Of a stretch of 64,000 nt of DNA, positions 1,832-63,389 are shown piece by piece. Where the stretch lies: contig JAFYPA010000075.1 of NCBI GenBank assembly GCA_017560085.1, positions 86 to 64,085 on the forward strand, read 5' to 3'. The first letter of the stretch is position 1. Every line of letters begins with the position of its first letter. Below the pieces are notes generated by a model. That model searched no databases, had not been told where the DNA came from, and was given only the letters and a program-made list of their open reading frames with translations. The DNA is from Clostridia bacterium. Lineage in GTDB: Bacteria; Bacillota; Clostridia; Oscillospirales; CAG-382. Made by a program: the position numbers and the translations under genes.

Positions 1832-1840
1832 TTAAATAAT

Positions 1841-1882
1841 GCATAATTCATAATGCATAATGCATAATGCATAATGCATAAT
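1841..1882. repeat. tandem heptamer array, GCATAAT x6 (one unit TCATAAT)
   Basis: Read directly from the sequence, immediately after the aroF stop codon. Confidence 0.95.
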
Positions 1883-1884
1883 AA

Positions 1885-1918
1885 AGACCGCCAAGACCGC
1901 TTGCGGTCTTCACGGTCT
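1885..1918. terminator. compound hairpin AGACCG-cc-AAGACCGC-tt-GCGGTCTT-ca-CGGTCT between convergent aroF and atpC
   Basis: 14 paired positions with a 2-nt internal loop. No clear T-tract, so terminator function is inferred from its position. The 18-nt core CCAAGACCGCTTGCGGTC recurs at 53350-53367. Confidence 0.45.
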
Positions 1919-2025
1919 CGGATGGAAGCTTCGTTTCCTTCATTTAATTAAATTTGCTATAGGTGTTGATTTTGGATTCCTCGGGGGGCTTTGGCTTCTC
2001 GGGGAATTCGTTTTTTGCAAAAAAA

Positions 2026-2069: not shown

Positions 2070-2333
2070 TTATTCTTTCCATTTGAAGCTGCCTGCAAGG
2101 AGTGTTACCTTGTCCTTGGCAACTGTCAGGATTCCGCCTTCGGTTGTGCCGATTTTTTCCTCGCCGTCCTCGAATTCGATTTTGCATTCACCGGGGACAA
2201 CAGAGGTGATGAAGGGGACGTGGCCTGCCATTACGGCAAGGTCGCCCATTGCGCCACGGAGGGAAAGGTTTACGATTTCACCGCTGAACAAATCGCCGTC
2301 CGGTGAAGAAACGGTCAATTTAAATGTTGTCAT
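2070..2333 (-). CDS. atpC: F1 ATP synthase epsilon subunit, beta-sandwich domain only (87 aa)
   Basis: MTTFKLTVSSPDGDLFSGEI...MAGHVPFIT... matches the epsilon N-terminal domain. Located directly downstream of atpD. It ends at 87 aa with no helical C-terminal domain. Confidence 0.85.
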   Translation of the reverse strand: MTTFKLTVSSPDGDLFSGEIVNLSLRGAMGDLAVMAGHVPFITSVVPGECKIEFEDGEEKIGTTEGGILTVAKDKVTLLAGSFKWKE

Positions 2334-3740: not shown

Positions 3741-3779
3741 CTATCCTTTTTTGTAAGTGAAAAGGGGGGAATGTTCAAT

Positions 3780-3807
3780 GCATAATGCATAATGCATAAT
3801 GCATAAT
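3780..3807. repeat. heptamer array GCATAAT x4 (left arm of an inverted pair)
   Basis: Read directly. The reverse-complement array lies at 3924-3951. Confidence 0.95.
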
Positions 3808-3923
3808 CAATGTTGATTTTGCAGGCAAAATCTTCAATTGCGATTTTATGATTTTTTAATTTTGATTTGCTGTATTTTTATTTCAATTCAAAATGCAGAT
3901 TTCACGAAGTGAAATCCTCATCA

Positions 3924-3951
3924 ATTATGCATTATGCATTATGCATTATGC
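3924..3951. repeat. heptamer array ATTATGC x4 (right arm, reverse complement of 3780-3807)
   Basis: Read directly. The two 28-nt arms are perfectly complementary and separated by 116 nt. Confidence 0.95.
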
Positions 3952-3972
3952 ATTTAAATTTGCCTCGCAAAT

Positions 3973-7671: not shown

Positions 7672-7704
7672 TTACCTCCAAAGTTGTAAAAAATAATTTT
7701 TTAA

Positions 7705-7742
7705 ATGCAAAATGCAAAATGCAAAGTGCAAAATGCAAAATG
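7705..7742. repeat. heptamer array ATGCAAA x5 (one unit GTGCAAA) in the atpB-atpE spacer
   Basis: Read directly. Confidence 0.95.
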
Positions 7743-10029: not shown

Positions 10030-11064
10030 ATGAAATTTGCTTTTTTCGATACCAAGCCCTACGACAGACCCGCCTTTGAAAGGTACGGCGAGGAAAAGGG
10101 CATAAAATTTAAATTCTACGAAACCAAACTTACCGAGGATACCGTAAGCCTTGCAAACGGATACGACGGTGTCTGTGTATTTGTAAACGATACGGTGAAC
10201 GCGGCTGTTATAGACAGACTCTGCGAAATGGGAGTAAAGGTTGTTGCACTCAGATGTGCGGGCTTCAATAATGTTGATATGAAGTACGCCTACGGAAAAA
10301 TTCACGTTCTGCGTGTCCCCGCATATTCACCCTACGCCGTTGCGGAGCATACAATCGCAATGCTTCTCACATCTGTCAGAAGAATTCATAAGGCATACAT
10401 CAGAACAAGGGATTTCAACTTTTCCCTTGCGGGTATGACGGGCTTTGACCTTCACGGAAAGACGGTCGGTGTAATCGGAACGGGTAAAATCGGAAGGGTG
10501 TTCATCAACATCTGCCGCGGCTTCGGAATGAAGGTTATCGCATATGACAAGTTCCCCGCAAAGGAAATAGAGGACGGCGAAAGCGTAAAATACGCAGAGC
10601 TTGACGAGCTGTTCGCAAAAAGCGATATCATCTCTCTCCATTGCCCTCTGACGGAGGACACCTACCACCTTATAAATGAAGAAACCATAGACAAGTGCAA
10701 AAAGGGAGTGATTCTCCTTAACACCTCAAGAGGCGCACTTGTGGATGCGGAAGCACTCCTTTCGGGAATCAAGGACAGAAAAATCGGTGCGGCGTGCCTT
10801 GATGTATACGAGGAGGAGGCGGACTTCTTCTTTGAGGACTTTTCGGGACGCATCATTTCCGATGATACTCTTGCAAGACTTATCTCGATGCCCAATGTTA
10901 TTGTAAGCTCCCATCAGGCGTTCCTTACAAACGAGGCACTTGAAAATATAGCGGAAACCACGGTGAACAATATAGTCGGCTTTTTCGAAAGCGGCACCTG
11001 CCCCAACGAGCTCTGCTACAGATGCGGAAGCACAGAGGACTGCAAGACGGGAAAATGCTTTTGA
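10030..11064 (+). CDS. ldhA: D-lactate dehydrogenase / D-isomer-specific 2-hydroxyacid dehydrogenase
   Basis: 344 aa: MKFAFFDTKPYD..., NAD site GVIGTGKIGRV, then SRG...D and SHQAFLT. Carries an extra Cys-rich tail, CPNELCYRCGSTEDCKTGKCF. Confidence 0.9.
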   Translation: MKFAFFDTKPYDRPAFERYGEEKGIKFKFYETKLTEDTVSLANGYDGVCVFVNDTVNAAVIDRLCEMGVKVVALRCAGFNNVDMKYAYGKIHVLRVPAYSPYAVAEHTIAMLLTSVRRIHKAYIRTRDFNFSLAGMTGFDLHGKTVGVIGTGKIGRVFINICRGFGMKVIAYDKFPAKEIEDGESVKYAELDELFAKSDIISLHCPLTEDTYHLINEETIDKCKKGVILLNTSRGALVDAEALLSGIKDRKIGAACLDVYEEEADFFFEDFSGRIISDDTLARLISMPNVIVSSHQAFLTNEALENIAETTVNNIVGFFESGTCPNELCYRCGSTEDCKTGKCF

Positions 11065-11074
11065 AAAATTAAAA

Positions 11075-11095
11075 ATGCAAAATGCAAAATGCAAA
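11075..11095. repeat. heptamer array ATGCAAA x3
   Basis: Read directly. Lies between the ldhA stop and the next gene's start. Confidence 0.9.
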
Positions 11096-11123
11096 ATTGA
11101 ATTTACGGAACGGAGTGATACAG

Positions 11124-11819: not shown

Positions 11820-11842
11820 TCCGTGCAAAATGAAGTTTAACA

Positions 11843-11904
11843 ATTTATGGCGGAAATCCGACGGATAAAATGATATAATACATAAAAAATAAAAATGCAA
11901 AGGA
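11843..11904 (+). repeat. 62-bp direct repeat, copy 1
   Basis: ATTTATGGCgGAAATCCGACGGATAAAATGATATAATACATAAAAAATAAAAATGCAAAGGA. Identical at 61 of 62 positions to 12918-12979. Confidence 0.95.
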
Positions 11905-11971
11905 TAATAGCCATATTAGCAGCAGGTCCCACCAGTGGATTTAGCTTGGCATTTGCTTTCTAAGAGGTTAT

Positions 11972-12874: not shown

Positions 12875-12917
12875 TGGTGTTTTCATTCAGTGTACAGAAA
12901 AGATACTTGGCTACACC

Positions 12918-12979
12918 ATTTATGGCAGAAATCCGACGGATAAAATGATATAATACATAAAAAATAAAAATGCAAAGGA
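12918..12979 (+). repeat. 62-bp direct repeat, copy 2 (contains the ferritin -10-like TATAAT and RBS)
   Basis: See copy 1. It ends in AAAGGAG, 10 nt before the ferritin ATG. Confidence 0.95.
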
Positions 12980-12989
12980 GAAAAGTACT

Positions 12990-13824: not shown

Positions 13825-13919
13825 ATTTATATGTCAGTTTTAACACTAATCCCAATAATAATTTTCATATTTAGTCGAAATATCACAAAAAAATTTTCAT
13901 TTCCGTACAATAAACACCT

Positions 13920-13948
13920 TGACTTAATCAAAAAAATCTGTCATAATA
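13920..13948 (+). promoter_or_regulatory. sigmaA-type promoter for the etfB-etfA-lctD operon
   Basis: TTGACT, a 17-nt spacer, then CATAAT, about 110 nt upstream of etfB. Confidence 0.5.
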
Positions 13949-14003
13949 TAAAAGTATAAATTTGTCCACCAAAATACGGCAATTTAAAAAATCCAAAATG
14001 ATT

Positions 14004-14038
14004 GTGCATTGTGCATTGCGCATTGTGCATTGTGCATT
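14004..14038. repeat. heptamer array GTGCATT x5 (one unit GCGCATT) in the etfB leader
   Basis: Read directly. Lies between the putative promoter and the etfB RBS. Confidence 0.95.
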
Positions 14039-14056: not shown

Positions 14057-14845
14057 ATGAATATTTTAGTCTGCATAAAGCAAGTCCCCGGCTCCTCCAA
14101 TGTCGAGGTCGATCCCGTAACAGGCGTCCTCAAGAGAGACGGCGTCAAGAGCAAGCTTAACCCCTACGACCTCTACGGTCTTGAAACAGCAATCGAGCTT
14201 TGCGAAAGATTCGGCGGTGAGGTTGAGACCATCACTATGGGTCCGCCTCAGGCAAAGAGCATTATTGTTGAGTCCATCTGTATGGGCGCAAAGAGAGGCA
14301 CGGTGCTTTCCGACAGAAAGTTTGCCGGTGCCGATGTTCTTGCCACCGCTTACACCATTTCGCAGGGTATTAAGAAAACAGGCGAATTCGACCTCATAAT
14401 CTGCGGCAAGCAGACCACCGACGGCGATACCGCTCAGGTTGGTGCTGAGGTTGCGGAATATCTCGGTATTCCCAACGTTTCCAATGTGCTTTCCGTTGAC
14501 GATGTGAAGGACGGCAAGGTATTCGTTACGGCATCACTTGATGAAAAGATAGTAAAAATGGAGATTGCTCTCCCTTGTCTTATTTCCGTGGACGGCGACA
14601 TCAACTCTCCCAGACTTCCCTCATACAAGGTGAAGCAGACAGTTACCGACGATATGGTGAAGTTCATTTCCTTTGCGGATTTCGAGGACCGGAATGAAAA
14701 GCACTACGGTCTTTCAGGCTCCGCAACTCAGGTTGAAAGAATCTTCCCGCCGGAAAAGAACAGCGAAAAGAGCAGTATCGAAGGCGATGCGGAAGCACAG
14801 GCAGAGGGTCTTTTTGCTCTCATAAAGAATCGTAAGGTTATATAA
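14057..14845 (+). CDS. etfB: electron transfer flavoprotein beta subunit (LctB-like)
   Basis: MNILVCIKQVPG...NPYDLYGLE...CGKQTTDGDTAQVG. AAGGAG RBS. The track ORF start at 14009 lies inside the repeat array. Confidence 0.92.
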   Translation: MNILVCIKQVPGSSNVEVDPVTGVLKRDGVKSKLNPYDLYGLETAIELCERFGGEVETITMGPPQAKSIIVESICMGAKRGTVLSDRKFAGADVLATAYTISQGIKKTGEFDLIICGKQTTDGDTAQVGAEVAEYLGIPNVSNVLSVDDVKDGKVFVTASLDEKIVKMEIALPCLISVDGDINSPRLPSYKVKQTVTDDMVKFISFADFEDRNEKHYGLSGSATQVERIFPPEKNSEKSSIEGDAEAQAEGLFALIKNRKVI

Positions 14846-17441: not shown

Positions 17442-17735
17442 TCAGCGGTTTAAATTGAATATTTGATGAGAATTTCCGCATTCGGGCACGGCTCGGATGC
17501 GGAAGCTTTTTTAGGATTTGGATGAGAATGCGGAAGCATCCGAGCCCGCCTTTTCGAGGAGGGACAGCTCTAAGCTTGCGAAGCAATCAAGCTTCCCTGA
17601 CCCCTATAAATTCCAATTTATCACCGTACCGATTTCAATAAACAATAATTGTGCATCGTGCATTTTTTCTCCCCTCCCTGCATATCCATATAACAAAAAA
17701 ATCCCCCTCGAAAAAGGGAAAAACGGAGGAAAATT

Positions 17736-21248: not shown

Positions 21249-21454
21249 TTCCGCATCCTCCGATTGATTTGAATTCCCGGTGCTTTTATTATAATCATTC
21301 GGGAATTTTTTGTCAATGATTTTTGTGAAAATAATCCATATTTATATAAAATAAATCCATTTACTTTGATTTGCGATACCCTTATAATGTAGATATAATG
21401 ATATTTATTTTAAGATTTACAAACTATCTTATTATGAAAGGAACGGTTGTAATT

Positions 21455-24400
21455 ATGAGAAAAATATCCGCATTGGTTATGGCATTGCTTCTTGCCTCAC
21501 AGAGCCTTTTTACGGCATTGGCTCTCACGGAGCAGAACTATGATTTTGCAAAGTACAATCCTCTTGTAGAGGAGAATTTCCCGCTTGCAAGAGAGGCGGC
21601 AGGTGAAGGTATTGTACTTCTTGAAAACAAAAACAACACGTTGCCTCTCGCCGCTGACAGCAAGGTTTCTCTTTTCGGTATCGGACAGATAGACTATGTT
21701 GCGGGCGGTACAGGCTCGGGTATTATCAATACCGCATACAAGGTGAACTTCCTTGACGGTATGCTTGATGCTGAAAAGAACGGAAAGCTCACCGTTGATT
21801 CTGCAACGGCAAAGGTATACTCTGATATATACGACGAATGGACACAGGCTGTTGCCGATGCCGAGGCGGCAGGAACAGCAAAGCCTTCTCTTGATGAGTA
21901 CGCCCTCACGGATGAGGATGTAGCAAAGGCAAGAGCTGAAAGCGACACGGCAGTATATTACATCAGAAGAATCCAGGGTGAAGGAAGCGACAGAAAGGCT
22001 GTGAAGGGCGACTATTACATCAGCGACATCGAGGCTTCAAACCTTGCGAAGATTGATGAGGCAGGCTTTGAGAACTTTATAATTGTAATAAACGCAGGTA
22101 CAGCGGTTGATACCTCCTTCTTCAAGGATTACGAAACAGCCGACTCCCTTATTATGGCGTGGCTTCCCGGCGTTGAGGGCGGTCTTGCACTTGCGGATGT
22201 TATGACGGGCGATGTGAACCCTTCGGGTAAGCTTACCGATACGTTCCTTAAGTCCTACGACTGCTATCCTTCCGCAGAAAGCTTCACCGAGTCACAGTCC
22301 TTTGTAAACTACACCGAGGACATTTACAACGGTTACAGATATTTTGAAACCTTCGACCCGGAATACACAATGGTAAACTATGAGTTCGGCTACGGACTTT
22401 CATATACCGAATTTACACTTTCAGGCGACAGCGCTACCGTTTCCGACGGCAATGTAAATGTTTCCGTAAGCGTTAAGAACACGGGCGAGTGTGCGGGTAA
22501 GGAAGTAATTCAGGTGTACTACGGCGCACCTCAGGGACTTCTCGGAAAGAGCGCAAGGGTTCTTGCGGGATATGCAAAGACAAAGCTTCTTGCTCCCGGT
22601 GAAACACAGAGGATTACAGTTACATTCCCCGTATCCGATATGGCATCCTTCGATGACCTCGGCAAGACGGGAAACAAGTCCGCATATGTTCTTGAAGCGG
22701 GCGACTACAATTTCTACATAGGTAACTCCGTGCGCAATGCGGGTGAAAGAGGCATAAAGGGTACATATACCGTTTCCGAAACCGTTGTAACACAGCAGCT
22801 TACCTCGCTTCTCACACCCAATGCTCTCGATAAGAGACTTGTTGCAAAAGAAGAAGCGGACGGAAGCCTCACAGCGGAATACGAGCGTCTTTCCGTTACA
22901 ACCGATGCCGACGGAAGCTACAAAATCGACCCCAATGCCGCACAGACAATAATTGATGCGGAAAACTACACGGATGGTACAGACGGACTTGAAACTCCCG
23001 TTCTTCCCATGCAGGACAACCTTAAATACGTTAAGGGAATGAAGAACGGCGAATACATAAGCTTTGCCTTCTCCAACGAAAATGCGGCTATGTATACAAT
23101 CGCACTCAACATCTCCAACGGTGGCGAGGCGGTTTCTCCCTCCTTCAATATTTATCTTAACGATACTCTCGTATGCAGTGACATCTCCGTTGCATCAACG
23201 GGAAGCGGTACTGCAGACGGTACATTCGTGTTCAGCGAAACCGAATTCGGACTTCTTGTATTCGAAAAGGGCAAGAGCACCGTAAAGATTGAATCCGCAA
23301 ACGACGGACTTCTTGACATTGACAGCATTATCTTAAGACCTGTTACAGACCTTCCCGTAATCAAGGCGGACAAAAAGACGGTTATCGAAGCGGAAAAATA
23401 CGATGTAGCCTATAACAATCCCGATGACGGCAACAATATGCTTATTAGTACCGAATCCGCTCTTGGCGAAACACTTGTTGCAAAGATGCAGGGTAAGGGC
23501 AACTACATAGAATACCGTTTCCTCGTTGAAGAGGCGGGAACATATGCGTTCACCTTCAACTATGCCGCAACGGGAAATATGACAAATCCCTATTCCATAA
23601 GCATAAACGGAACAGTTCAGGATGTAAGCTATACACTTGCAAAAACATCTCCCGAGGGTACAACAAGTGCCGACGGTATGGTGTTCTATAACACCTGTGC
23701 AGACGCAGAGCCTATAGACATTGTTCTTCCCGCGGGCTTTGTAACAATGAGAATTACCACAATCGGCGGTTCTCCCAACCTTAACAGATACACCTTTGAA
23801 AAGAAGTTCGAGCTTCCTTCAGGCTTTACACTGGTTTCGGGCACGGAAAACACCGAAATTGAGGCGGAAAATGCTTCCGCTATGGCTAAGGGTGTGTGGG
23901 CTGAAGTAAAGACCGTTGACGGCGTGGAAACAAAGGTACTCAACGCACTTACGGGCGAGGGCAAGTTCCTTGAATACAAGCTCTGGTTTGAAAAGGCGGG
24001 AGAGTACGGCGTTGTATTCAATGTTGCTTCTACCGCTAACGGCACAAATCCCTTCAGATTCCTTGCAAACGGCAACGAAATAGCTGTTTCCGACTACACA
24101 TTTACAAAAACAACTCCCGAGGGAGCAACCACATCCGACACGGATGCATACTATCACACATACCTCGATATGCCCGCGATAGCTATGGAATTCCCCGCAG
24201 GTAAGGTTATCTTCAGACTTGAAACAACAGATACAAAGCAGAAGCCCAATTTCAACAAGTTCACAATAAAGCCCGTTGCCGAATACGAGGCGGAAGCTCC
24301 CGCAGGCTACAGACAGGTGCTTGACACCGAGCCTCTTGTAATTCAGGCTGAAAGCTATGATGCAAACTTCAATGTACAGACACAGAAAATGAATCAGCTT

Positions 24401-27328
24401 ACCCTTGCCGGGGGTGAATCTCAGGGCGAGGTTATAATGGAAAACATCAAGTCAAGCGGTTCATATCTTGAATACAACGTATGGTTCAAGTACGGCGGAG
24501 ACTATACAATAACCTATAACTACGCTTCAACAAGAAATCACGAAGCTCCCTTTGAGGTATACCTTGACGGCGAAAAGCTCATAAGAAGCGAAAGCTACAC
24601 ACTTGCAAAGACCTCTCTCGAGGGTGCTACATGGAAGGATACATACGACTACTACTTCGTGTTCAAGAATTCCGATCCCATTCCCTATACCTTCCCGCAG
24701 GGCAGCACAACACTCAGAATTTCCGCAGATAACGGCGCAGGCTCAAACTTCGATATGCCTAACCTCAACTACATCACAATTACCTGCGTTGAGGCGGACA
24801 TCCCCGAAATAACAGCTCCCGACGGCGGTGATGACGAAGGGGAAGAAGACGAGGGCGAGGGCACGGAAACAGAGCCCGAAATCTCCGCAGACAGACTTCC
24901 CGATTATACCGAAAAGGAAGAGGATGCCGAGCTTATAATGTACGAGGACTACATTTCCGGAAAGGCAACTCTTGACGAATTTGTAGCACAGCTTACAAAC
25001 CTTGACCTTATCCGTCTTGCGGGCGGTCATCCTCCGGTTAACGGCTGCTCCTCCTCTATGGGCAGACTTCTTAAGTATCACATCCCGACAGTAAACACAG
25101 GTGACGGCGGCGCGGGTATCAGAACAGGTGCGGATGCCATGACAACATGGTGGCCCTGCTCCACAATGCTCGCCTGCACATGGAATACAGACCTTATAAG
25201 ACGTGTCGGCAATGCCGTAGGTCTTGAAGGAAAGAGACTCCGCTGGGATACATGGCTCGCTCCCGGACTTAATATCCACCGTAATCCCCTTTGCGGAAGA
25301 AACTTCGAGTATTATTCCGAGGATCCGCTTGTTTCCGGTATTTGTGCCGCAGAAATAACCATCGGTGCAAGAGCACAGGGAATGCACACTGTTCCCAAGC
25401 ACTTTGCCGTAAACAACAAGGAGAGCGGAAGAAGCATAAGCGACAGCCGACTTTCCGAAAGAGCACTTCGTGAAATCTACCTCAAGGGCTTTGAAATCCT
25501 TGTAAAGAAGGCACAGCCCAAGTACATTATGACCTCCTACAACCTCATAAACGGCACGGAAGCCGCTGAAAGCTACGACCTTCAGACAGCAATCCTCCGA
25601 GGTGAATGGGGCTTTGACGGAATCACAATGACAGACTGGAACAACACAAACTCCAGACCCGCAAAGGAAATCAAGGCGGGAAGCAACATCAGAATGCCCT
25701 ACGGCGAAATAAATGAGCTTGTCCGTGACCTTTACAACGGCGACATTACAAGAGAAGAGCTCAAGGAAAATGCAAAGGTAATTCTCCCCGTGCTTGCGGA
25801 CTCCATGGCGTTTGAGGGTGCTTTGAACGTATATGAGGTAACAAGAGAATCCGATATATATATTCCCGTTATAAACTACAACTACGTTAACGACGATAAC
25901 TTCGGAACGGTAATAAAGGACTTCACATCCTCCGATAACAAGTTCTATGGCGTAGGTGAATACTACGAGCATCACTCGTGGACACCCAACCTTACATATT
26001 CCGCAGACGGCGGTGTTTCTCTCAATATCTGGTCAAAGAATGTAACCAACGATAACGTTGAATTCGATGACAGCTCGCTGTTCCTTGCATATAACGTGGA
26101 TGTTGAGGAAAGCGGAAGCTATAAGATTTATCTGTTCACACCTCAGAAGAGCCAGACAAACACAATCTATGTTGACGACGTAAAGGCGGGCGATATCCGT
26201 TCGGGCAAGGCTTCAAGAGATGAAACCTATGTCAGAAGTGAGGCTCTCACGGTAAATCTTACAAAGGGCAGACACACAATAAAGCTTGGCGGCGTCGGTG
26301 TTGTTGAAAGACTCTGCATCACTCCCGACTTCACAAAGGAGCAGGAAGCTGTTGATGGCAGAATCTTCACAAAGATTGACAGCGAATGGGGTCTTAAGTT
26401 CGAGAAAATGTCTGACGAAATAGGCACCTTCAACCGTATAACGGTTGACCCCGATGATGTCGATAATATGCTCGCAACGGACCACTGGAGCATTGCAAAC
26501 GACGAAACCGTATATCCTTACCTTGCATTCTGCTACAGAACGAACTACGACGGCGAAATGACAGCATACGCAAAGCGTTCGGGACAGTCAACGGGTGATG
26601 CAAATGCATATACCTTCAAGGCAGACAAGGCAGATGTGTGGACAACAAGTGTAATAAAGCTTACGGGTACGGGCGACGATACAATCTTCCGTCAGCTTCA
26701 CTTCTATCCCTTCGGCAAGGGCAATACCCATGCAAATGCACTTGAAAAGAACTATTATTTCGACCTCTACCATTACGGCTTCTTCAAGACGGAGGCAGAT
26801 GCACTCGCATACTGCAGAAACCACGCTCCCAAGGCAATCAAGGGTAACATCATCCTTGAGCGTGACATTGAAAACGGATACTATGACGATGCACTCCTCG
26901 GTTATGCGGGCTATGCGGAAATATCACTTCTTGACAGCAACGGCAAAACCGTATCCAAGTTCTACGAATACGGCACATATGTCAGCGAAACGGACGGCAA
27001 GGCAACAATCGGCTTCACCTTTGATGCCGAGGACGGAGATTACACCCTTGTTGTAAGAAAGCCCGGCTACGCTGAAAAGCAGGTAGCGATAACCGTAGAA
27101 AACGGCACGGCACACATAGACGATATCCACCTTCTCGCAGGTGATATTACGGCAAGCTTCAGCGAAGTACACGGCGACGGCATAATAGACATAGACGACT
27201 TTATAAGAATACTCCGTGCATTTGCACACGATGCGGATGAAAGAATAAAGATTTACACGGATATAAACGAGGACGGACTTGTAAACGTATCGGATATTGC
27301 GATACTCAAGAAGAACTTCGGAAAATAA
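21455..27328 (+). CDS. secreted multidomain GH3 glycosidase, domain-permuted, with four CBM-like modules (the last three tandem repeats) and a C-terminal dockerin
   Basis: Signal peptide MRKISALVMALLLASQSLF. The GH3 alpha/beta-sandwich and FnIII-like domains come first (KLTDTF, YGLSYTEF). Four IxAExY-type CBM-like modules follow, then an acidic linker. Next is the GH3 barrel (KHFAVNNKE, GFDGITMTDW). The protein ends in a dockerin duplicate (HGDGIIDIDD...DINEDGLVNVSD). The track ORF start at 21371 is upstream of the signal peptide. Confidence 0.85.
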   Translation: MRKISALVMALLLASQSLFTALALTEQNYDFAKYNPLVEENFPLAREAAGEGIVLLENKNNTLPLAADSKVSLFGIGQIDYVAGGTGSGIINTAYKVNFLDGMLDAEKNGKLTVDSATAKVYSDIYDEWTQAVADAEAAGTAKPSLDEYALTDEDVAKARAESDTAVYYIRRIQGEGSDRKAVKGDYYISDIEASNLAKIDEAGFENFIIVINAGTAVDTSFFKDYETADSLIMAWLPGVEGGLALADVMTGDVNPSGKLTDTFLKSYDCYPSAESFTESQSFVNYTEDIYNGYRYFETFDPEYTMVNYEFGYGLSYTEFTLSGDSATVSDGNVNVSVSVKNTGECAGKEVIQVYYGAPQGLLGKSARVLAGYAKTKLLAPGETQRITVTFPVSDMASFDDLGKTGNKSAYVLEAGDYNFYIGNSVRNAGERGIKGTYTVSETVVTQQLTSLLTPNALDKRLVAKEEADGSLTAEYERLSVTTDADGSYKIDPNAAQTIIDAENYTDGTDGLETPVLPMQDNLKYVKGMKNGEYISFAFSNENAAMYTIALNISNGGEAVSPSFNIYLNDTLVCSDISVASTGSGTADGTFVFSETEFGLLVFEKGKSTVKIESANDGLLDIDSIILRPVTDLPVIKADKKTVIEAEKYDVAYNNPDDGNNMLISTESALGETLVAKMQGKGNYIEYRFLVEEAGTYAFTFNYAATGNMTNPYSISINGTVQDVSYTLAKTSPEGTTSADGMVFYNTCADAEPIDIVLPAGFVTMRITTIGGSPNLNRYTFEKKFELPSGFTLVSGTENTEIEAENASAMAKGVWAEVKTVDGVETKVLNALTGEGKFLEYKLWFEKAGEYGVVFNVASTANGTNPFRFLANGNEIAVSDYTFTKTTPEGATTSDTDAYYHTYLDMPAIAMEFPAGKVIFRLETTDTKQKPNFNKFTIKPVAEYEAEAPAGYRQVLDTEPLVIQAESYDANFNVQTQKMNQLTLAGGESQGEVIMENIKSSGSYLEYNVWFKYGGDYTITYNYASTRNHEAPFEVYLDGEKLIRSESYTLAKTSLEGATWKDTYDYYFVFKNSDPIPYTFPQGSTTLRISADNGAGSNFDMPNLNYITITCVEADIPEITAPDGGDDEGEEDEGEGTETEPEISADRLPDYTEKEEDAELIMYEDYISGKATLDEFVAQLTNLDLIRLAGGHPPVNGCSSSMGRLLKYHIPTVNTGDGGAGIRTGADAMTTWWPCSTMLACTWNTDLIRRVGNAVGLEGKRLRWDTWLAPGLNIHRNPLCGRNFEYYSEDPLVSGICAAEITIGARAQGMHTVPKHFAVNNKESGRSISDSRLSERALREIYLKGFEILVKKAQPKYIMTSYNLINGTEAAESYDLQTAILRGEWGFDGITMTDWNNTNSRPAKEIKAGSNIRMPYGEINELVRDLYNGDITREELKENAKVILPVLADSMAFEGALNVYEVTRESDIYIPVINYNYVNDDNFGTVIKDFTSSDNKFYGVGEYYEHHSWTPNLTYSADGGVSLNIWSKNVTNDNVEFDDSSLFLAYNVDVEESGSYKIYLFTPQKSQTNTIYVDDVKAGDIRSGKASRDETYVRSEALTVNLTKGRHTIKLGGVGVVERLCITPDFTKEQEAVDGRIFTKIDSEWGLKFEKMSDEIGTFNRITVDPDDVDNMLATDHWSIANDETVYPYLAFCYRTNYDGEMTAYAKRSGQSTGDANAYTFKADKADVWTTSVIKLTGTGDDTIFRQLHFYPFGKGNTHANALEKNYYFDLYHYGFFKTEADALAYCRNHAPKAIKGNIILERDIENGYYDDALLGYAGYAEISLLDSNGKTVSKFYEYGTYVSETDGKATIGFTFDAEDGDYTLVVRKPGYAEKQVAITVENGTAHIDDIHLLAGDITASFSEVHGDGIIDIDDFIRILRAFAHDADERIKIYTDINEDGLVNVSDIAILKKNFGK

Positions 27329-53217: not shown

Positions 53218-53272
53218 AGTATATATATTCTCCTTAATCTTTATATTGGATTTGTAAGGGACAGTGGACAGT

Positions 53273-53401
53273 GGATGTTGGAAGCTTCGCTTCCTTCAAA
53301 TAAATTCAAATGAAGATTGCGGAGAATACGCAGAATTCTTTGCAATCAACCAAGACCGCTTGCGGTCATAATTGTGCATTGTGCATTGTGAATTGTGCAT
53401 T
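53273..53401. repeat. composite intergenic repeat: GGAAGCTTCGCTTCC hairpin, CCAAGACCGCTTGCGGTC hairpin, then GTGCATT x4 (one unit GTGAATT)
   Basis: Read directly. The modules are shared with 1841-1950. Confidence 0.9.
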
Positions 53402-53442: not shown

Positions 53443-55518
53443 TTAAATCTTCATACAAACGTCCCACGCGCCCCAGATAACAGTGCGCAAATTGCCTACC
53501 TTGGAAGCATCGCCGATAATGTGAACCTTTCCGCCCTTCTTTGCAATCGGTGCGGGATTGTAGCCGACGGAGAGTATAACGGAGTCTGTGTCAATTCCGA
53601 ATTCCTTGCCGTCCTTGTCCTTGACCGTGATACCGCCGTCACGAATTTCGCAGAGGGAGGTTTCGAGATGCACCTCTACCTTGTTGGTCTTGAAGAAGTC
53701 ACGGAGATAGCTTGTGTTTGCAAGGCAGATGCCCTTGCCCGTGATAAGGTCGTCCTGCATTTCTATAATAACGGGTGTCTTGCCCTTGCGGTAGAGGTCG
53801 TATGCGATTTCACAGCCCGTAAGACCGCCGCCGATTACGGCAACCTTGTTGCCTACCTCCGCTTTTCCGAGAAGATAGTCTATCGCTTCAACGGCTGTGT
53901 CCGCACCCTTTACGGGAATCTTCTTTGCTACGGCACCCGTTGCGATTACGATTTCGTCTGCATCGAGTGTCTTTATGTCCGTAATTTCGGCACCGAGCTT
54001 TACTTCAATGGGATGCTTTGAAAGCTCTCTTATGTACCAGCTGATGAGTGCCTTGTCCTTTTCCTTGAAGTCGGGTGCTGCCGCCGCTACGAATACACCG
54101 CCGAGTCTTTCGGACTTTTCGTAAAGCGTTACCGTGTGACCTCTCTTGGAAAGGAGAATTGCCGCCTCCATACCGCCGATACCGCCGCCGATTACAGCGA
54201 CCTTCTTCTGCTTCTTTGCTTTCTTTACGCTGTACTTCTTTGACTGCATTGTTTCGGGATTGAGCGCACATCTTGCAAGTCCCATAGTGTCGGTAAGGTC
54301 CTGAGTGTTTGCGTGTCCCTTTGAGGAGGAGAAGTTGAAGCAGCCCGCGTGACAGCAGATACAGGGCTTGATTTCTTCCATTCTGTCCTCAATCATCTTT
54401 GTAATCCATTCGGGGTCGACAAGGAACTGTCTTGCAACTCCGACAGCATCTATAAGTCCGTCTGCAACAGCCCTTGCACCTACCTCCGCATCCATTCTGC
54501 CCGCACATACTACGGGAATATCAACGAATTTCTTTATGTGTGCAACATCGGCAAGGTTGCAGTTTTCAGGCATATAAACAGGGGGATGCGCCCAGTACCA
54601 GGAGTCATATGCACCGTTGTCGGCGTTGAGCATATCGTAGCCCGCATCCTGAAGATACTTTGCCGCTCTTTCGGATTCTGCCATGCTTCTTCCGACCTCG
54701 GTGTATTCCTCACCGGGCATTGCGCCCTCGCAGAAGCCCTTCATCTTGGATTCTACTGAGTAGCGGAGAGATACGGGATAGTCGCTTCCGCATTCCTTTT
54801 TGATTGCCTTTACTACCTCTGCGGCGAAGCGGTATCTGTTTTCAAAGCTTCCGCCGTAGTCGTCTGTACGCTTGTTGAAGAATTCAATTGCGAACTGGTC
54901 AAGAAGGTAGCCCTCATGCACGGCGTGAATCTCCACACCGTCTACGCCTGCGTCACGGCAGAGCTTTGCGGTCTTTGCAAACGCCTCAATAATCTCGTGA
55001 ATCTGATGGGTTGTCATTTCGGGGCAGATAATATCGTGCGCCCAGCGTGAGGGCTGAGGGCTGGGACAAGCAAGCTCGTGGCTTGTGTCGATAATGGGCT
55101 TCACAAGTGCACGGGTGAACTTATTTTTGTGAAGGGGAGCGACAAGCTCTGTGATAGCCCAGCTTCTGCCCATACCTGCGGTGAGCTGAACAAAGAGCTT
55201 TGCGCCCGTCTTATGAATTTCGTCCATAAATTCACGAAGCTCGTCGAACATCTTGGGATTCTGCCAGAGCCACTTGCCGAAGAAGGTATCACGAAGCGGA
55301 GCGATACCGGGAATGATAAGACCTACGTTGTTATTGGCACGCTCAAGAAAGAGCTTTGCGGCTTCCTTGTCGAAGTGGCAGCCGCCGATTTCGAACCAGC
55401 CGAAGAGCGATGTACCGCCCATGGGACACATTACGATTCGGTTCTTGATTTCAACGTTTCCGATTTTCCAGGGGGTAAACAGCGCCTGATATTTTTCGTT
55501 TATGGTGTTCATATCCAT
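53443..55518 (-). CDS. OYE-type NADH:flavin oxidoreductase fused to an FAD/NAD(P)-binding domain (2,4-dienoyl-CoA / enoate reductase architecture)
   Basis: 691 aa. N-terminal TIM barrel (NRIVMCPMG, HAVHEGYLLDQF), Fe-S Cys motif CICCHAGC...C, then VAVIGGGIGGMEAA and VAVIGGGLTGCE. Confidence 0.85.
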   Translation of the reverse strand: MDMNTINEKYQALFTPWKIGNVEIKNRIVMCPMGGTSLFGWFEIGGCHFDKEAAKLFLERANNNVGLIIPGIAPLRDTFFGKWLWQNPKMFDELREFMDEIHKTGAKLFVQLTAGMGRSWAITELVAPLHKNKFTRALVKPIIDTSHELACPSPQPSRWAHDIICPEMTTHQIHEIIEAFAKTAKLCRDAGVDGVEIHAVHEGYLLDQFAIEFFNKRTDDYGGSFENRYRFAAEVVKAIKKECGSDYPVSLRYSVESKMKGFCEGAMPGEEYTEVGRSMAESERAAKYLQDAGYDMLNADNGAYDSWYWAHPPVYMPENCNLADVAHIKKFVDIPVVCAGRMDAEVGARAVADGLIDAVGVARQFLVDPEWITKMIEDRMEEIKPCICCHAGCFNFSSSKGHANTQDLTDTMGLARCALNPETMQSKKYSVKKAKKQKKVAVIGGGIGGMEAAILLSKRGHTVTLYEKSERLGGVFVAAAAPDFKEKDKALISWYIRELSKHPIEVKLGAEITDIKTLDADEIVIATGAVAKKIPVKGADTAVEAIDYLLGKAEVGNKVAVIGGGLTGCEIAYDLYRKGKTPVIIEMQDDLITGKGICLANTSYLRDFFKTNKVEVHLETSLCEIRDGGITVKDKDGKEFGIDTDSVILSVGYNPAPIAKKGGKVHIIGDASKVGNLRTVIWGAWDVCMKI

Positions 55519-63220: not shown

Positions 63221-63259
63221 ATGTTTTCGGCACGCTGTGATGGTGTGCCGTTTTTTTGT

Positions 63260-63287
63260 AATGCACAATGCACAATTCACAATGCAC
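63260..63287. repeat. heptamer array AATGCAC x4 (one unit AATTCAC), reverse complement of the GTGCATT type
   Basis: Read directly. Confidence 0.95.
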
Positions 63288-63389
63288 AATTGAGGTTGAA
63301 AAACTGCGTTTTTCTGCGGTTGGGGGTTGACAAGGGCGTGTATGGGTGTTATTATGGTAATATCATAACCTTAACGAAAGGTAAAAAGC

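What the first reader, a model, noticed from the sequence alone, without database searches (positions are those of the whole stretch)
14004..14038. Genome-wide family of 7-bp-phased TGCA tandem arrays in leaders, intercistronic spacers and gene ends
**Seen in the sequence.**
- Short arrays of heptamers, each containing TGCA, occur at 10 or more non-coding sites.

| Position | Unit | Copies |
|---|---|---|
| 1841-1882 | GCATAAT | 6 |
| 3780-3807 | GCATAAT | 4 |
| 3924-3951 | reverse complement of GCATAAT | 4 |
| 7705-7742 | ATGCAAA | 5 |
| 11075-11095 | ATGCAAA | 3 |
| 14004-14038 | GTGCATT | 5 |
| 17651-17664 | GTGCATT | 2 |
| 53374-53401 | GTGCATT | 4 |
| 63260-63287 | reverse complement of GTGCATT | 4 |

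- All the arrays place the palindromic tetranucleotide TGCA every 7 nt, with a 3-nt spacer of TAA, AAA or TTG type.
- Several lie inside transcription units: the atpB-atpE spacer, the atpG-atpD spacer, the ldhA to Fe-S gene spacer, and the leader of the etfB operon downstream of its promoter. None lies inside a CDS.

**Inference.**
- The fixed phase with a variable spacer suggests selection on the TGCA register. It could be a reiterated binding site for an oligomeric DNA- or RNA-binding protein, by analogy with TRAP- or HutP-type triplet repeats. Replication slippage alone seems a less good fit.
- Copy-number change could also modulate spacing or expression.
- I know of no described function.
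Basis: seen in the sequence. Interest (0 to 1): 0.65.

Follow-up and report, generated by a model that had tools for sequence, protein, structure and literature searches.

The report
Dispersed AATGCAN heptamer repeat arrays
Nine short tandem arrays of a 7-base unit (AATGCA plus one variable base) sit between genes in this window; they are real and far beyond chance, and they belong to the long-known but unexplained class of bacterial heptanucleotide repeats, not to a TRAP- or HutP-like protein-binding site.

Summary
There are eight solid arrays and one marginal array with period 7, against about 0.1 expected by chance, and all lie in untranslated DNA. In register every unit is AATGCA+N (N = T, A or C), so this is one family, not "TGCA plus a variable spacer".

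- **Within the species:** strains differ by whole units (4 versus 5 copies). One strain has the array-bearing leader segment replaced.
- **Sister species:** none carry arrays around the one orthologous locus compared (etfB).
- **Elsewhere:** the same AATGCAN arrays occur in genomes from many phyla and in viral contigs. Control heptamers are also common there, so AATGCA is not demonstrably special.

This is the known kind of element described as heptanucleotide long simple sequence repeats: cyanobacterial STRRs, Xanthomonas GGGAATC and Beggiatoaceae TAACTGA. Their function is unknown.

My best reading is slippage-maintained repeat modules that act, if at all, in cis. Single arrays would be A/U-rich spacers; head-to-head pairs would be long hairpins, such as the 36-bp stem between atpG and atpD.

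Three regularities are not explained by neutral slippage and keep a factor-dependent reading open:
- a preferred size of about 31 nt;
- convergent-only pairs (35 versus 0);
- sense arrays that abut stop codons.

Verdict: a new member of a known kind.

The parts
1836..1882 (+). Array (AATGCAT) x6.7 with one variant unit, AATTCAT. It starts 5 nt after the DAHP-synthase stop codon (1831), in sense orientation, and faces atpC (2070-2333, minus strand).
1893..1942 (+). Two small GC hairpins next to the array head: H1 AAGACCGCTTGCGGTC (1893-1908) and H2 GGAAGCTTCGTTTCCTTCA (1924-1942).
   Evidence: both recur at 53280-53367; 0.04-0.6 expected by chance
3777..3807 (+). Array (AATGCAT) x4.4. It forms one arm of the convergent inverted pair in the atpG-atpD spacer.
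3924..3954 (-). Array (AATGCAT) x4.4 read on the minus strand. It lies 19 nt after the atpG stop, in sense orientation in the atp transcript, and is the partner arm of 3777-3807.
3767..3964 (-). The whole inverted-repeat element (53-nt arms, 85% complementary, 92 nt between the arms). The 241-nt atpG-atpD spacer RNA folds with a 36-bp stem, -76.1 kcal/mol, z = -8.5.
   Evidence: (I1). Relatives have 12-22 nt spacers here.
7703..7742 (+). Array (AATGCAA) x5.7 with variant unit AGTGCAA, in the atpB-atpE spacer. The atp transcript carries the complement (CAUUUUG)n, 38 nt upstream of the atpE start.
   Evidence: four units in seven other strain contigs
11072..11097 (+). Array (AATGCAA) x3.7. It starts 8 nt after the 2-hydroxyacid dehydrogenase stop, in sense orientation, and ends 26 nt before the Fe-S gene start (11124).
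14001..14038 (-). The flagged array. It reads (GTGCATT) x5.4 on the + strand, which is (AATGCAC)n on the minus strand, with variant unit GCGCATT. It lies in the etfB 5' leader between the promoter (13919-13947) and the ribosome-binding site, and ends 18 nt before the ATG at 14057.
   Evidence: five units in the window and L583, four in L582 and L586, absent in L022
17651..17664 (-). Marginal two-unit array (GTGCATC GTGCATT), 72 nt upstream of spoIVA.
   Evidence: (D5)
53280..53369 (+). The H2 (53280-53298) and H1 (53352-53367) hairpins again, adjacent to the head of the next array.
53371..53401 (-). Array (AATGCAC) x4.4 on the minus strand with variant unit AATTCAC. It lies 42 nt after the stop of the flavin oxidoreductase gene (53443-55518, minus strand), in sense orientation.
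   Evidence: 24 of 24 nt are identical to 63267-63290, including the variant unit (I14).
63260..63290 (+). Array (AATGCAC) x4.4 with variant unit AATTCAC. It lies between an intrinsic-terminator-like hairpin (63228-63250 plus a T run) and the next promoter-like site (63327-63355).

Best explanation
**What it is.** The arrays are members of a genome-dispersed family of short heptanucleotide simple-sequence repeats. The unit is AATGCA+N, and the usual module is 4-5 units ending in AAT, about 31-38 nt. The host is an uncultured spore-forming, Ruminococcaceae-like Clostridium. This is the same kind of element as cyanobacterial STRRs, Xanthomonas GGGAATC repeats and Beggiatoaceae TAACTGA repeats.

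**Shown here**
- The arrays are resized in whole 7-nt steps between strains, which indicates slipped-strand mispairing.
- They occur only in untranslated DNA.
- They turn over quickly: they are absent around the one orthologous locus compared (etfB) in sister species, and one conspecific strain has the array-bearing segment replaced.

**Inferred**
- In this organism they probably have no dedicated binding protein. Their effects are local and structural.
- A single array acts as an A/U-rich, poorly structured spacer, either just behind a stop codon or ahead of a ribosome-binding site.
- Two arrays lying head to head make a long hairpin in the transcript. The atpG-atpD pair has a 36-bp stem that could serve as a processing, stabilising or terminator-like element.
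- Selection mainly decides where, and in which orientation, arrays are tolerated.
For: **Identity and non-randomness:**

**One family, with copying or homogenisation.** All units are AATGCA+N. Three arrays are identical 31-mers. Arrays at 53378-53401 and 63267-63290 share the same internal variant unit.

**Slippage**
- The atpB-atpE array has 4 units in seven strain contigs (atpE 97.5-98.4% nucleotide identity) and 5 in the window. The variant unit stays in place.
- The etfB-leader array has 5 units in the window and L583, and 4 in L582 and L586.

**Turnover**
- L022 is conspecific (etfB 98.7% nucleotide identity) but lacks the leader array. That segment carries an H1-type hairpin plus AATTCCG heptamers instead.
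- Sister species at 91-93% EtfB identity have no period-7 arrays in the loci around etfB, although the etfB promoter is conserved.

**Insertions relative to a compact ancestor.** The atpG-atpD spacer is 12-22 nt in 27 of 70 relatives. At least 10 relatives carry heptamer arrays there with different units.

**Hairpin.**

**No strand consistency.** Transcripts carry the arrays in either orientation, which argues against a single RNA-binding factor.

**No match to a known RNA family.**

**Same class described before.** Features reported for the class include mostly about four units, intergenic location and some inverted pairs (PMC4692102; PMC4679880).
Against: Several regularities are not predicted by neutral slippage plus passive tolerance.

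1. **Preferred size.** Copy number peaks at 4 units (31 nt) and falls about 8-fold at 5 units, both in genomes from many phyla and in viral contigs.
2. **Convergent-only pairs.** Neighbouring AATGCAN arrays of opposite orientation are convergent in 35 cases and divergent in 0.
3. **Stop-codon adjacency.** Sense arrays start -2 to +10 nt from a stop codon far more often than antisense ones: 30 versus 2 in genomes, 49 versus 11 in viral contigs.
4. **AT-rich arrays in GC-rich contigs.** The same 29%-GC array occurs 7-13 times in 61-63% GC viral contigs.
5. **Stability.** Short arrays keep their length across 7-15% flank divergence, although this rests on only 2-3 independent families.

These features hint at a length ruler, a directional mechanism or a trans-acting factor. 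No expression data are available, so every functional statement here is inference.
Confidence: 0.5

Rival explanations
1. The arrays are reiterated binding platforms for an oligomeric or cooperatively binding nucleic-acid-binding protein. One AATGCA would be bound per subunit at a 7-nt pitch, about four subunits per module. The factor could act on DNA, like the ribbon-helix-helix omega repressor on WATCACW heptads. It could instead act on single strands, like cold-shock proteins, ribosomal protein S1 or a HutP-like ring.
For: - Module size is fixed at about 4 units across phyla and phages.
- The hexamer is kept while the 7th base varies, both between arrays and within arrays in other genomes.
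- Eight of the 10 differences between homologous arrays fall on the 7th base, though this count is small and affected by how the arrays were selected.
- Direct and convergent arrangements occur but divergent ones never do. From my own knowledge, this parallels the omega repressor's preference.
- Arrays are dense in GC-rich viral contigs.
- Short arrays are conserved despite flank divergence.
Against: - There is no consistent orientation relative to transcription in the window.
- Arrays at the same atpG-atpD site in relatives use unrelated units.
- In this window the 7th base is uniform within each array, and the mismatches fall on hexamer positions 1, 2, 4 and 6. That is what slippage predicts and the opposite of a constrained hexamer.
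- The arrays are lost or replaced between conspecific strains upstream of housekeeping genes.
- Control heptamers behave similarly.
- No candidate protein was identified.
Confidence: 0.25
2. The arrays are parts of non-autonomous mosaic intergenic elements, comparable to REP, BIME or REPIN elements. In this view arrays plus the small H1 and H2 hairpins are copied or moved as modules by recombination or by a transposase encoded elsewhere. The convergent pair would be the mobile unit.
For: - H1 and H2 hairpins recur next to two arrays, in the same order relative to the array head.
- An H1 variant flanked by heptamers replaces the array in strain L022.
- Two arrays 9.8 kb apart share an identical 24-mer, including the variant unit.
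- Convergent pairs resemble REPIN doublets.
- The arrays lie behind stop codons, as REP elements do.
- Turnover occurs by segment replacement.
Against: - Single arrays are not palindromes.
- No sequence beyond the array is shared among most copies.
- No transposase or RAYT-like gene was looked for systematically, and none was noted among the called genes.
- The same unit occurs in many phyla, whereas REP elements are species-specific.
- Whole-unit copy-number changes fit slippage.
Confidence: 0.12
3. The arrays are transcription signals. The units supply phased -10-like hexamers (CANAAT, with TG just upstream), so arrays would act as weak internal promoters firing in the AATGCAN direction. Convergent pairs would act as bidirectional terminators.
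For: - The promoter scan places -10-like hexamers inside the arrays at 1847-1875, 3757-3786, 3958-3931 (minus strand) and 11061-11090.
- Convergent pairs have an A-rich 5' arm and a U-rich 3' arm, which is the polarity of a terminator.
- The arrays sit at cistron junctions where downstream subunits are needed in excess: a to c, and gamma to beta.
Against: - The matches are only 9 of 12 and lack a good -35 element.
- The arrays at 14001 and 7703 point away from the downstream gene.
- A terminator between atpG and atpD would work against the need for more beta subunit.
- Consensus scans are not evidence of function.
Confidence: 0.06
4. The arrays are phase-variation (contingency) switches, in which copy-number change turns neighbouring genes on or off.
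For: Copy number differs by one unit among strains. Heptamer tracts do control expression in some pathogens (the ctxAB TTTTGAT heptads, and the Haemophilus hmw 7-bp repeats listed).
Against: - The neighbours are housekeeping genes: ATP synthase, Etf/lactate dehydrogenase and DAHP synthase.
- The arrays are not inside ORFs and not between the -35 and -10 elements.
- Variation is slow: one unit across about 2% divergence.
- Short arrays are stable in other lineages.
Confidence: 0.03
5. The arrays are an assembly or sequencing artefact.
For: The window is a short-read metagenome contig.
Against: - The same arrays appear in independent samples and assemblies, with identical sequence or differing by a whole unit.
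- At 31-47 nt the arrays are far shorter than the assembly k-mer implied by the 'k141' contig name.
- Equivalent arrays occur in at least one record not labelled as a MAG, Moorena producens 3L.
Confidence: 0.01

Closest known systems
Heptanucleotide long simple sequence repeats of prokaryotes (Mrazek, Guo and Shah 2007, as summarised in PMC4679880 and PMC4692102)
   Same: - Tandem 7-nt units are the dominant repeat period.
- Many dispersed arrays of related units occur per genome.
- The arrays are intergenic.
- Their distribution across lineages is patchy.
- Slippage is proposed as the origin.
   Different: - The AATGCAN unit and the host (a rumen/gut-type Clostridium) did not turn up in the searched literature.
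- The size peak, the orientation polarity and the convergent-only pairing seen here were not in the passages I read.
Cyanobacterial STRR sequences (short tandemly repeated repetitive heptamers, Calothrix/Nostoc; cited in PMC4692102)
   Same: - Families of tandem heptamers are scattered through non-coding DNA in both orientations, with unknown function.
- AATGCAN arrays also occur in cyanobacterial records (Trichormus, Moorena, Cyanocohniella), alongside other heptamers.
   Different: - The units differ: CCCCAGT, TTGGTCA and CAACAGT, which I recall from memory.
- Cyanobacterial arrays are often much longer.
- The host phylum is different.
Xanthomonas GGGAATC and Nostoc GGGGAYT repeats (Rehm et al. 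2015, PMC4692102)
   Same: - About 180 intergenic arrays occur per genome.
- The majority have four units.
- Some form inverted pairs.
- Length and sequence vary between close species.
   Different: Those units are G-rich and can form quadruplexes. AATGCAN cannot.
Beggiatoaceae TAACTGA repeats (MacGregor 2015, PMC4679880)
   Same: - Arrays have 2-6 copies and lie in untranslated regions next to coding sequences.
- The same unit is found in distant phyla with no evident transfer mechanism.
- A role in translation has been suggested.
   Different: - TAACTGA repeats lie mostly in one orientation directly upstream of start codons, replacing the Shine-Dalgarno sequence.
- AATGCAN arrays more often follow stop codons, and in this window they keep the Shine-Dalgarno sequence.
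REP, BIME and REPIN elements of Gammaproteobacteria
   Same: - They are short dispersed intergenic elements behind stop codons and inside operons.
- They occur as singles and as inverted doublets that form hairpins.
- They appear in mosaics with other small motifs.
   Different: - REP elements are imperfect palindromes tied to a RAYT transposase and are species-specific.
- The elements here are tandem heptamers that change by whole-unit slippage.
TRAP (GAG/UAG triplets) and HutP (UAG every 7 nt) RNA-binding sites, and omega-repressor heptad operators (WATCACW)
   Same: - Short recognition blocks are reiterated.
- HutP and omega sites repeat at a 7-nt pitch.
- Omega accepts direct and convergent heptads but not divergent ones (from my own knowledge).
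   Different: - The sequence motifs do not match.
- Those sites lie at one or a few defined regulatory positions, whereas these arrays are scattered.
- The arrays here occur in both orientations and in 3' regions.

Membership tests
Prokaryotic heptanucleotide simple-sequence-repeat families (LSSR / STRR-like) | Head-to-tail tandem copies of a 7-nt unit, three or more copies | tested here: met
   Tandem Repeats Finder gives period 7 with 3.7-6.7 copies and 91-100% matches at eight sites.
Prokaryotic heptanucleotide simple-sequence-repeat families (LSSR / STRR-like) | Many dispersed arrays of the same or closely related unit in one genome, in excess over chance and over other periods | tested here: met
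   Eight or nine AATGCAN arrays occur in 64 kb. Period-7 runs number 10 against 0.09 expected, and other periods are at expectation. Only 64 kb of the genome was available.
Prokaryotic heptanucleotide simple-sequence-repeat families (LSSR / STRR-like) | Predominantly intergenic, in both orientations, with occasional inverted pairs | tested here: met
   All arrays are outside called genes. Five read AATGCAN on the + strand and four on the minus strand. There is one inverted pair.
Prokaryotic heptanucleotide simple-sequence-repeat families (LSSR / STRR-like) | Length changes by whole units between related genomes | tested here: met
   Strains differ by 4 versus 5 units at two loci.
TRAP / HutP-type RNA-binding sites | Reiterated (G/U)AG triplets (TRAP: 9-11 with 2-3 nt spacers; HutP: UAG with 4-nt spacers) | tested here: not met
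   The units AATGCAT, AATGCAA and AATGCAC and their complements contain no GAG or UAG.
TRAP / HutP-type RNA-binding sites | One orientation in the transcript, in a 5' leader overlapping terminator and antiterminator structures | tested here: not met
   Both orientations occur in transcripts, and most sites are 3' of genes or between cistrons.
TRAP / HutP-type RNA-binding sites | Presence of the cognate protein gene (mtrB or hutP) | not testable with these tools
   Only 64 kb of the genome is available. None of the Pfam families listed for the genes called at about window 4,057-24,845 is a TRAP or HutP family.
Contingency (phase-variation) loci | Repeat tract inside an ORF or in the promoter spacer of a surface, restriction-modification or virulence gene | tested here: not met
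   The arrays lie in leaders, intercistronic spacers and 3' regions of housekeeping genes.
Contingency (phase-variation) loci | High-frequency length variation among very close isolates | tested here: inconclusive
   One-unit differences appear at about 2% divergence. Arrays are identical at 99.98% identity. No within-population read data were available.
REP / REPIN elements | Each unit is an imperfect palindrome of 20-40 nt | tested here: not met
   Single arrays are direct repeats. Only the 3777/3924 pair forms a palindrome.
REP / REPIN elements | Associated RAYT (IS200/IS605-like) transposase in the genome | not tested
   Only 64 kb is available. None was noted among the called genes.
Omega-type ribbon-helix-helix heptad operators (inc18 plasmids) | Contiguous heptads of consensus WATCACW at promoters of copS, delta and omega | tested here: not met
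   The unit is AATGCAN, and most sites are not at promoters. The consensus is from my own knowledge.
Known structured RNA families (Rfam 15) | Match at gathering score | tested here: not met
   There are no matches in the whole window.

The most novel reading that the evidence does not exclude
AATGCAN modules, and perhaps more broadly heptads of the form AAT-NNNN, are a cis-element shared across bacterial phyla and their phages. They show a fixed size of about 31 nt, a polarity rule (the AATGCA end faces the adjacent gene and often fuses to the stop codon) and strictly convergent pairing. Such rules would imply one of two things. Either a conserved trans-acting machine reads the modules, for example something associated with the ribosome, RNA polymerase or the replisome, or a small heptad-binding protein. 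Or a directional enzyme writes them. In that case they would not be generic slippage debris.
Probability: 0.2. Interest if true: 0.8.

Novelty: new member of a known kind. Interest (0 to 1): 0.45.

Why it matters
Heptanucleotide repeats are the most over-represented long simple-sequence repeats in many bacterial genomes. They have been known since about 1990 and have no accepted origin or function.

This window adds an AT-rich family in a gut/rumen-type Clostridium. The family sits inside essential operons (ATP synthase, the Etf/lactate dehydrogenase cluster), so any cis effect bears on core energy metabolism.

The follow-up also produced three simple rules that can be tested in any genome collection:
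- a preferred length of four units;
- only convergent pairs;
- sense arrays abutting stop codons.

If these hold in an unbiased census, they would turn "why heptamers?" into a tractable question: is there a ruler, a polarity, a factor? If they do not hold, the arrays are ordinary slippage products that selection confines to untranslated DNA.

Tried and rejected
1. **Is AATGCA special?** I scanned viral contigs for (AATGCAN)3 and for two composition-matched control heptamers. No excess can be claimed. I ran no further search on this.
2. **Conservation at orthologous sites.** Sister species at 91-93% EtfB identity have no arrays near etfB. This rules out an anciently conserved regulatory site in the etfB leader.
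3. **Orthologous atp operons.** Relatives in metagenomes are only 62-71% identical. They were useful for the empty-site comparison but too distant to trace the window's own arrays.
4. **Known RNA families.** None matched.
5. **Literature string search.** Searching for the array sequences returned only irrelevant hits.
6. **Sense arrays as translational enhancers upstream of starts.** This was not supported. Directly upstream of start codons the complementary orientation is at least as common: 25 versus 14 in genomes, 20 versus 17 in viral contigs.
7. **Positional spectrum of substitutions in homologous arrays.** There were too few independent pairs (10 differences) and the selection was biased.
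8. **Mechanical ORF lists.** These suggested overlaps with four arrays. All came from upstream-extended alternative starts or spurious antisense ORFs, not from the called genes.
9. **Restriction sites, Chi sites, uptake sequences, primase sites and RNase E consensus.** I considered these from memory only. None fits all unit variants and none was tested.
Full report
**1.

Tandem Repeats Finder lists period-7 arrays at 1836-1882, 3777-3807, 3924-3954, 7703-7742, 11072-11097, 14001-14038, 53371-53401 and 63260-63290, with 3.7-6.7 copies and 91-100% matches. The site at 17651-17664 has only two units, one of them imperfect.

Exact period-7 runs number 10. First-order Markov simulations of the window give a mean of 0.09 and a maximum of 1, while periods 4-6 and 8-12 are at expectation. 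The phased TGCA pattern has 19 matches against 0.15 in dinucleotide-preserving shuffles.

About 89% of the window is coding. None of the arrays lies in a called gene, which gives P of about 3e-9. Apparent overlaps in a mechanical ORF list come from upstream-extended alternative starts or antisense ORFs.

**2. Anatomy**

Put in one register, every unit is AATGCA plus a seventh base: T at 1836, 3777 and 3924; A at 7703 and 11072; C at 14001, 17651, 53371 and 63260. The family therefore shares six of seven positions, not just TGCA.

- Arrays begin with AATGCA and end with a partial unit, AAT.
- Four of the eight are exactly 31 nt (four units plus AAT).
- Within each array the seventh base is uniform. 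The few deviant units change hexamer positions (AATTCAT, AGTGCAA, AATGCGC, AATTCAC twice, GATGCAC).
- Arrays at 53378-53401 and 63267-63290 are 24/24 identical, including the deviant unit. Three AATGCAT arrays are identical 31-mers.
- Two small GC hairpins recur beside the heads of the arrays at 1836 and 53371: AAGACCGCTTGCGGTC and GGAAGCTTCGYTTCCTTCA.

**3. Context**

The window is an ENA metagenome contig from a spore-former. It carries spoIVA and a 1985-aa GH3/dockerin protein, and its nearest named relative is a Ruminococcaceae MAG.

| Array | Position relative to genes | Orientation in the transcript |
|---|---|---|
| 1836 | 5 nt after the DAHP-synthase stop | sense |
| 3924 | 19 nt after the atpG stop | sense |
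| 11072 | 8 nt after the 2-hydroxyacid dehydrogenase stop | sense |
| 53371 | 42 nt after an oxidoreductase stop | sense |
| 63260 | 40 nt after a GNAT-like gene stop, just past a terminator-like hairpin and before the next promoter | sense |
| 7703 | fills the atpB-atpE spacer | complement |
| 14001 | etfB leader, between a good promoter (13919-13947) and the ribosome-binding site | complement |

Transcripts thus carry the arrays in either orientation.

Arrays 3777 and 3924 are a convergent inverted pair. The 241-nt atpG-atpD spacer RNA folds with a 36-bp stem (-76.1 kcal/mol, z = -8.5). No Rfam family matches anywhere in the window.

**4. Strains and relatives**

- A second sample holds the same strain (99.98% over 6.3 kb) with identical arrays.
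- Seven other contigs of the same species (atpE 97.5-98.4% nucleotide identity) have the atpB-atpE array with four units instead of five. The deviant unit is in the same place.
- The etfB-leader array has five units in two contigs and four in two others.
- Contig L022 has etfB 98.7% identical, yet it has no array. The distal leader is a different segment with an H1-type hairpin flanked by AATTCCG heptamers, and a degenerate TTTTGCA array lies upstream of the promoter.
- Sister species with 91-93% EtfB identity have no period-7 arrays in the loci around etfB, although the etfB promoter is conserved.
- Among 70 more distant relatives, the atpG-atpD spacer is only 12-22 nt (stop codon plus ribosome-binding site) in 27. 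At least ten carry heptamer arrays that begin within about 35 nt of the atpG stop (most within 10 nt), with different units: AATTCAT, AATGCAG, degenerate AATGCAN, TTAGTTG plus AGCTGTC, and AGTGGAT.

Arrays are therefore insertions relative to a compact ancestor. They recur at the same spacer with unrelated units, change by whole units, and can be lost by segment replacement.

**5. Beyond this lineage**

About 17 would be expected by chance in 596 Gb if base composition were uniform. The hits lie in Clostridia, Bacteroidales, Acidobacteriota, Planctomycetota, Verrucomicrobiota, Cyanobacteria, Chloroflexales and others.

Two composition-matched control heptamers gave 106 and at least 119 stretches. 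I therefore cannot say that AATGCA is favoured over other heptamers.

In all these sets period 7 far outnumbers periods 5, 6, 8 and 9, although the loci were selected for a heptamer array. Some 61-63% GC viral contigs carry 7-13 AATGCAG/A arrays, most exactly 31 nt, at gene junctions.

**6. Regularities found in passing**

- **Size.** Copy number of AATGCAN arrays peaks at four units and drops about 8-fold at five. Genomes give 3:60, 4:69, 5:8; viral contigs give 3:77, 4:102, 5:9.
- **Pair geometry.** Neighbouring arrays of opposite orientation within 200 nt are convergent (AATGCAN arm first) in 35 cases and divergent in none.
- **Stop-codon adjacency.** Sense arrays start -2 to +10 nt from the stop codon of a long ORF in 30 (genomes) and 49 (viral) cases, against 2 and 11 for the complementary orientation. 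The TAA stop often overlaps the first AA of the array.
- **Polarity.** The AATGCA end is nearer to a flanking ORF than the AAT end: 49:26 and 67:29. The controls show no such bias.
- **Stability.** Short arrays kept their length in all 93 comparisons with 85-93% flank identity, but these come from only 2-3 families. Only 8-9-unit arrays showed unit indels between identical flanks.

These sets contain related contigs and rest on crude ORF calls, so they are leads, not established rules.

**7. What is known**

Dispersed intergenic heptanucleotide repeats are a described class.

- Mrazek and colleagues found heptamers to be the commonest long simple-sequence repeat in most of the genomes they examined and suggested polymerase slippage (summarised in PMC4679880).
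- Cyanobacterial STRRs are members of the class.
- Xanthomonas GGGAATC arrays are members: about 186 per genome, mostly four units, with some inverted pairs (PMC4692102).
- Beggiatoaceae TAACTGA repeats are members: the same unit occurs in three phyla, and a translational role has been proposed.
- A Nostoc preprint reports regulatory effects of heptamer tracts without identifying a factor.

No paper in the library contains AATGCAN-array strings.

**8. Interpretation**

- **Identity (high confidence).** This is a heptanucleotide simple-sequence-repeat family of the STRR/LSSR kind.
- **Maintenance (shown).** Arrays change by whole-unit slippage and are confined to untranslated DNA.
- **Function (inferred, moderate to low confidence).** I favour no dedicated factor in this organism. 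Effects would be local: A/U-rich spacers, and long hairpins when arrays are paired.
- **Strongest rival.** The size peak, the strict pair geometry and the dense arrays in GC-rich viral contigs favour it. The mixed orientation in transcripts, unit replacement at the same site, loss between conspecific strains and the behaviour of control heptamers count against it.
- **Other readings.** The TRAP/HutP analogy fails on its defining features. A REP-like mosaic-element reading is kept alive by the H1/H2 hairpins. Phase variation and artefact are unlikely.

**9. Verdict**

The feature is real and non-random. It is a new member of a known but unexplained kind. The TGCA-register idea should be replaced by AATGCA+N. 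The cross-phylum regularities deserve an unbiased census.

Noticed in passing
window 11840-11910 and 12915-12985: A 71-nt stretch is duplicated at 94% identity. It contains a TGATATAAT -10-like box and a ribosome-binding site. The two copies lie ahead of an unknown 256-aa gene and the ferritin gene, next to rubredoxin. This may be a shared promoter and leader of an oxidative-stress cluster.
   Followed up: no
window 1893-1942 and 53280-53369; L022 about 340-400: Two small GC hairpins (AAGACCGCTTGCGGTC and GGAAGCTTCGYTTCCTTCA) recur beside array heads. A variant of the first, flanked by AATTCCG heptamers, replaces the etfB-leader array in a conspecific strain. Similar triloop hairpins follow AATGCAN arrays in other phyla (L041, L055, L071, L120).
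   Followed up: partly
window 53259-53275: A tenth period-7 run (GGACAGT x2.4) with an unrelated unit lies directly beside the H2 hairpin.
   Followed up: no
L183, L164/L169, L216, L243, L223 (IMG/VR contigs): Viral contigs of 61-63% GC carry 7-13 AATGCAG/A arrays, most exactly 31 nt, at gene junctions. They occur either all in one orientation or as convergent pairs with loops of about 12-15 nt.
   Followed up: partly
loci L023-L262 (AATGCAN arrays in genomes and viral contigs): Across these loci copy number peaks at four units. Opposite-orientation neighbours are always convergent (35 versus 0). Sense arrays abut stop codons, often sharing the AA of TAA.
   Followed up: partly
loci L143-L487: For three unrelated hexamers (AATGCA, AAGTCA, AATCGA), the seventh base of the arrays in viral contigs is most often G (80, 76 and 85 arrays). 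Many other arrays in these loci share a GAAT/AGAA core.
   Followed up: no
L548 and L555 (atpG-atpD spacers of relatives): Heptamer arrays fill the whole spacer up to the atpD start codon, with no recognisable Shine-Dalgarno sequence. This resembles the TAACTGA situation in Beggiatoaceae.
   Followed up: no
L507, atpG-atpD spacer: A 778-nt insertion carries an ORF that resembles a DUF559/Vsr-like endonuclease (my reading of the translation, not searched against any library). It is flanked by long GC-rich inverted repeats. This looks like a different kind of invader of the same spacer.
   Followed up: no
L053 3760-4200 (Ruminococcaceae RUG12962): About five tandem copies of a unit of roughly 110 nt lie downstream of rubredoxin, followed by a (GTGCATT)3 array ahead of the next gene.
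   Followed up: no
window 21371-27328: A 1985-aa protein has GH3, Fn3-like, GH115_C and dockerin domains, with a sub-threshold CBM35 match. This points to a cellulosome-type fibre degrader.
   Followed up: no
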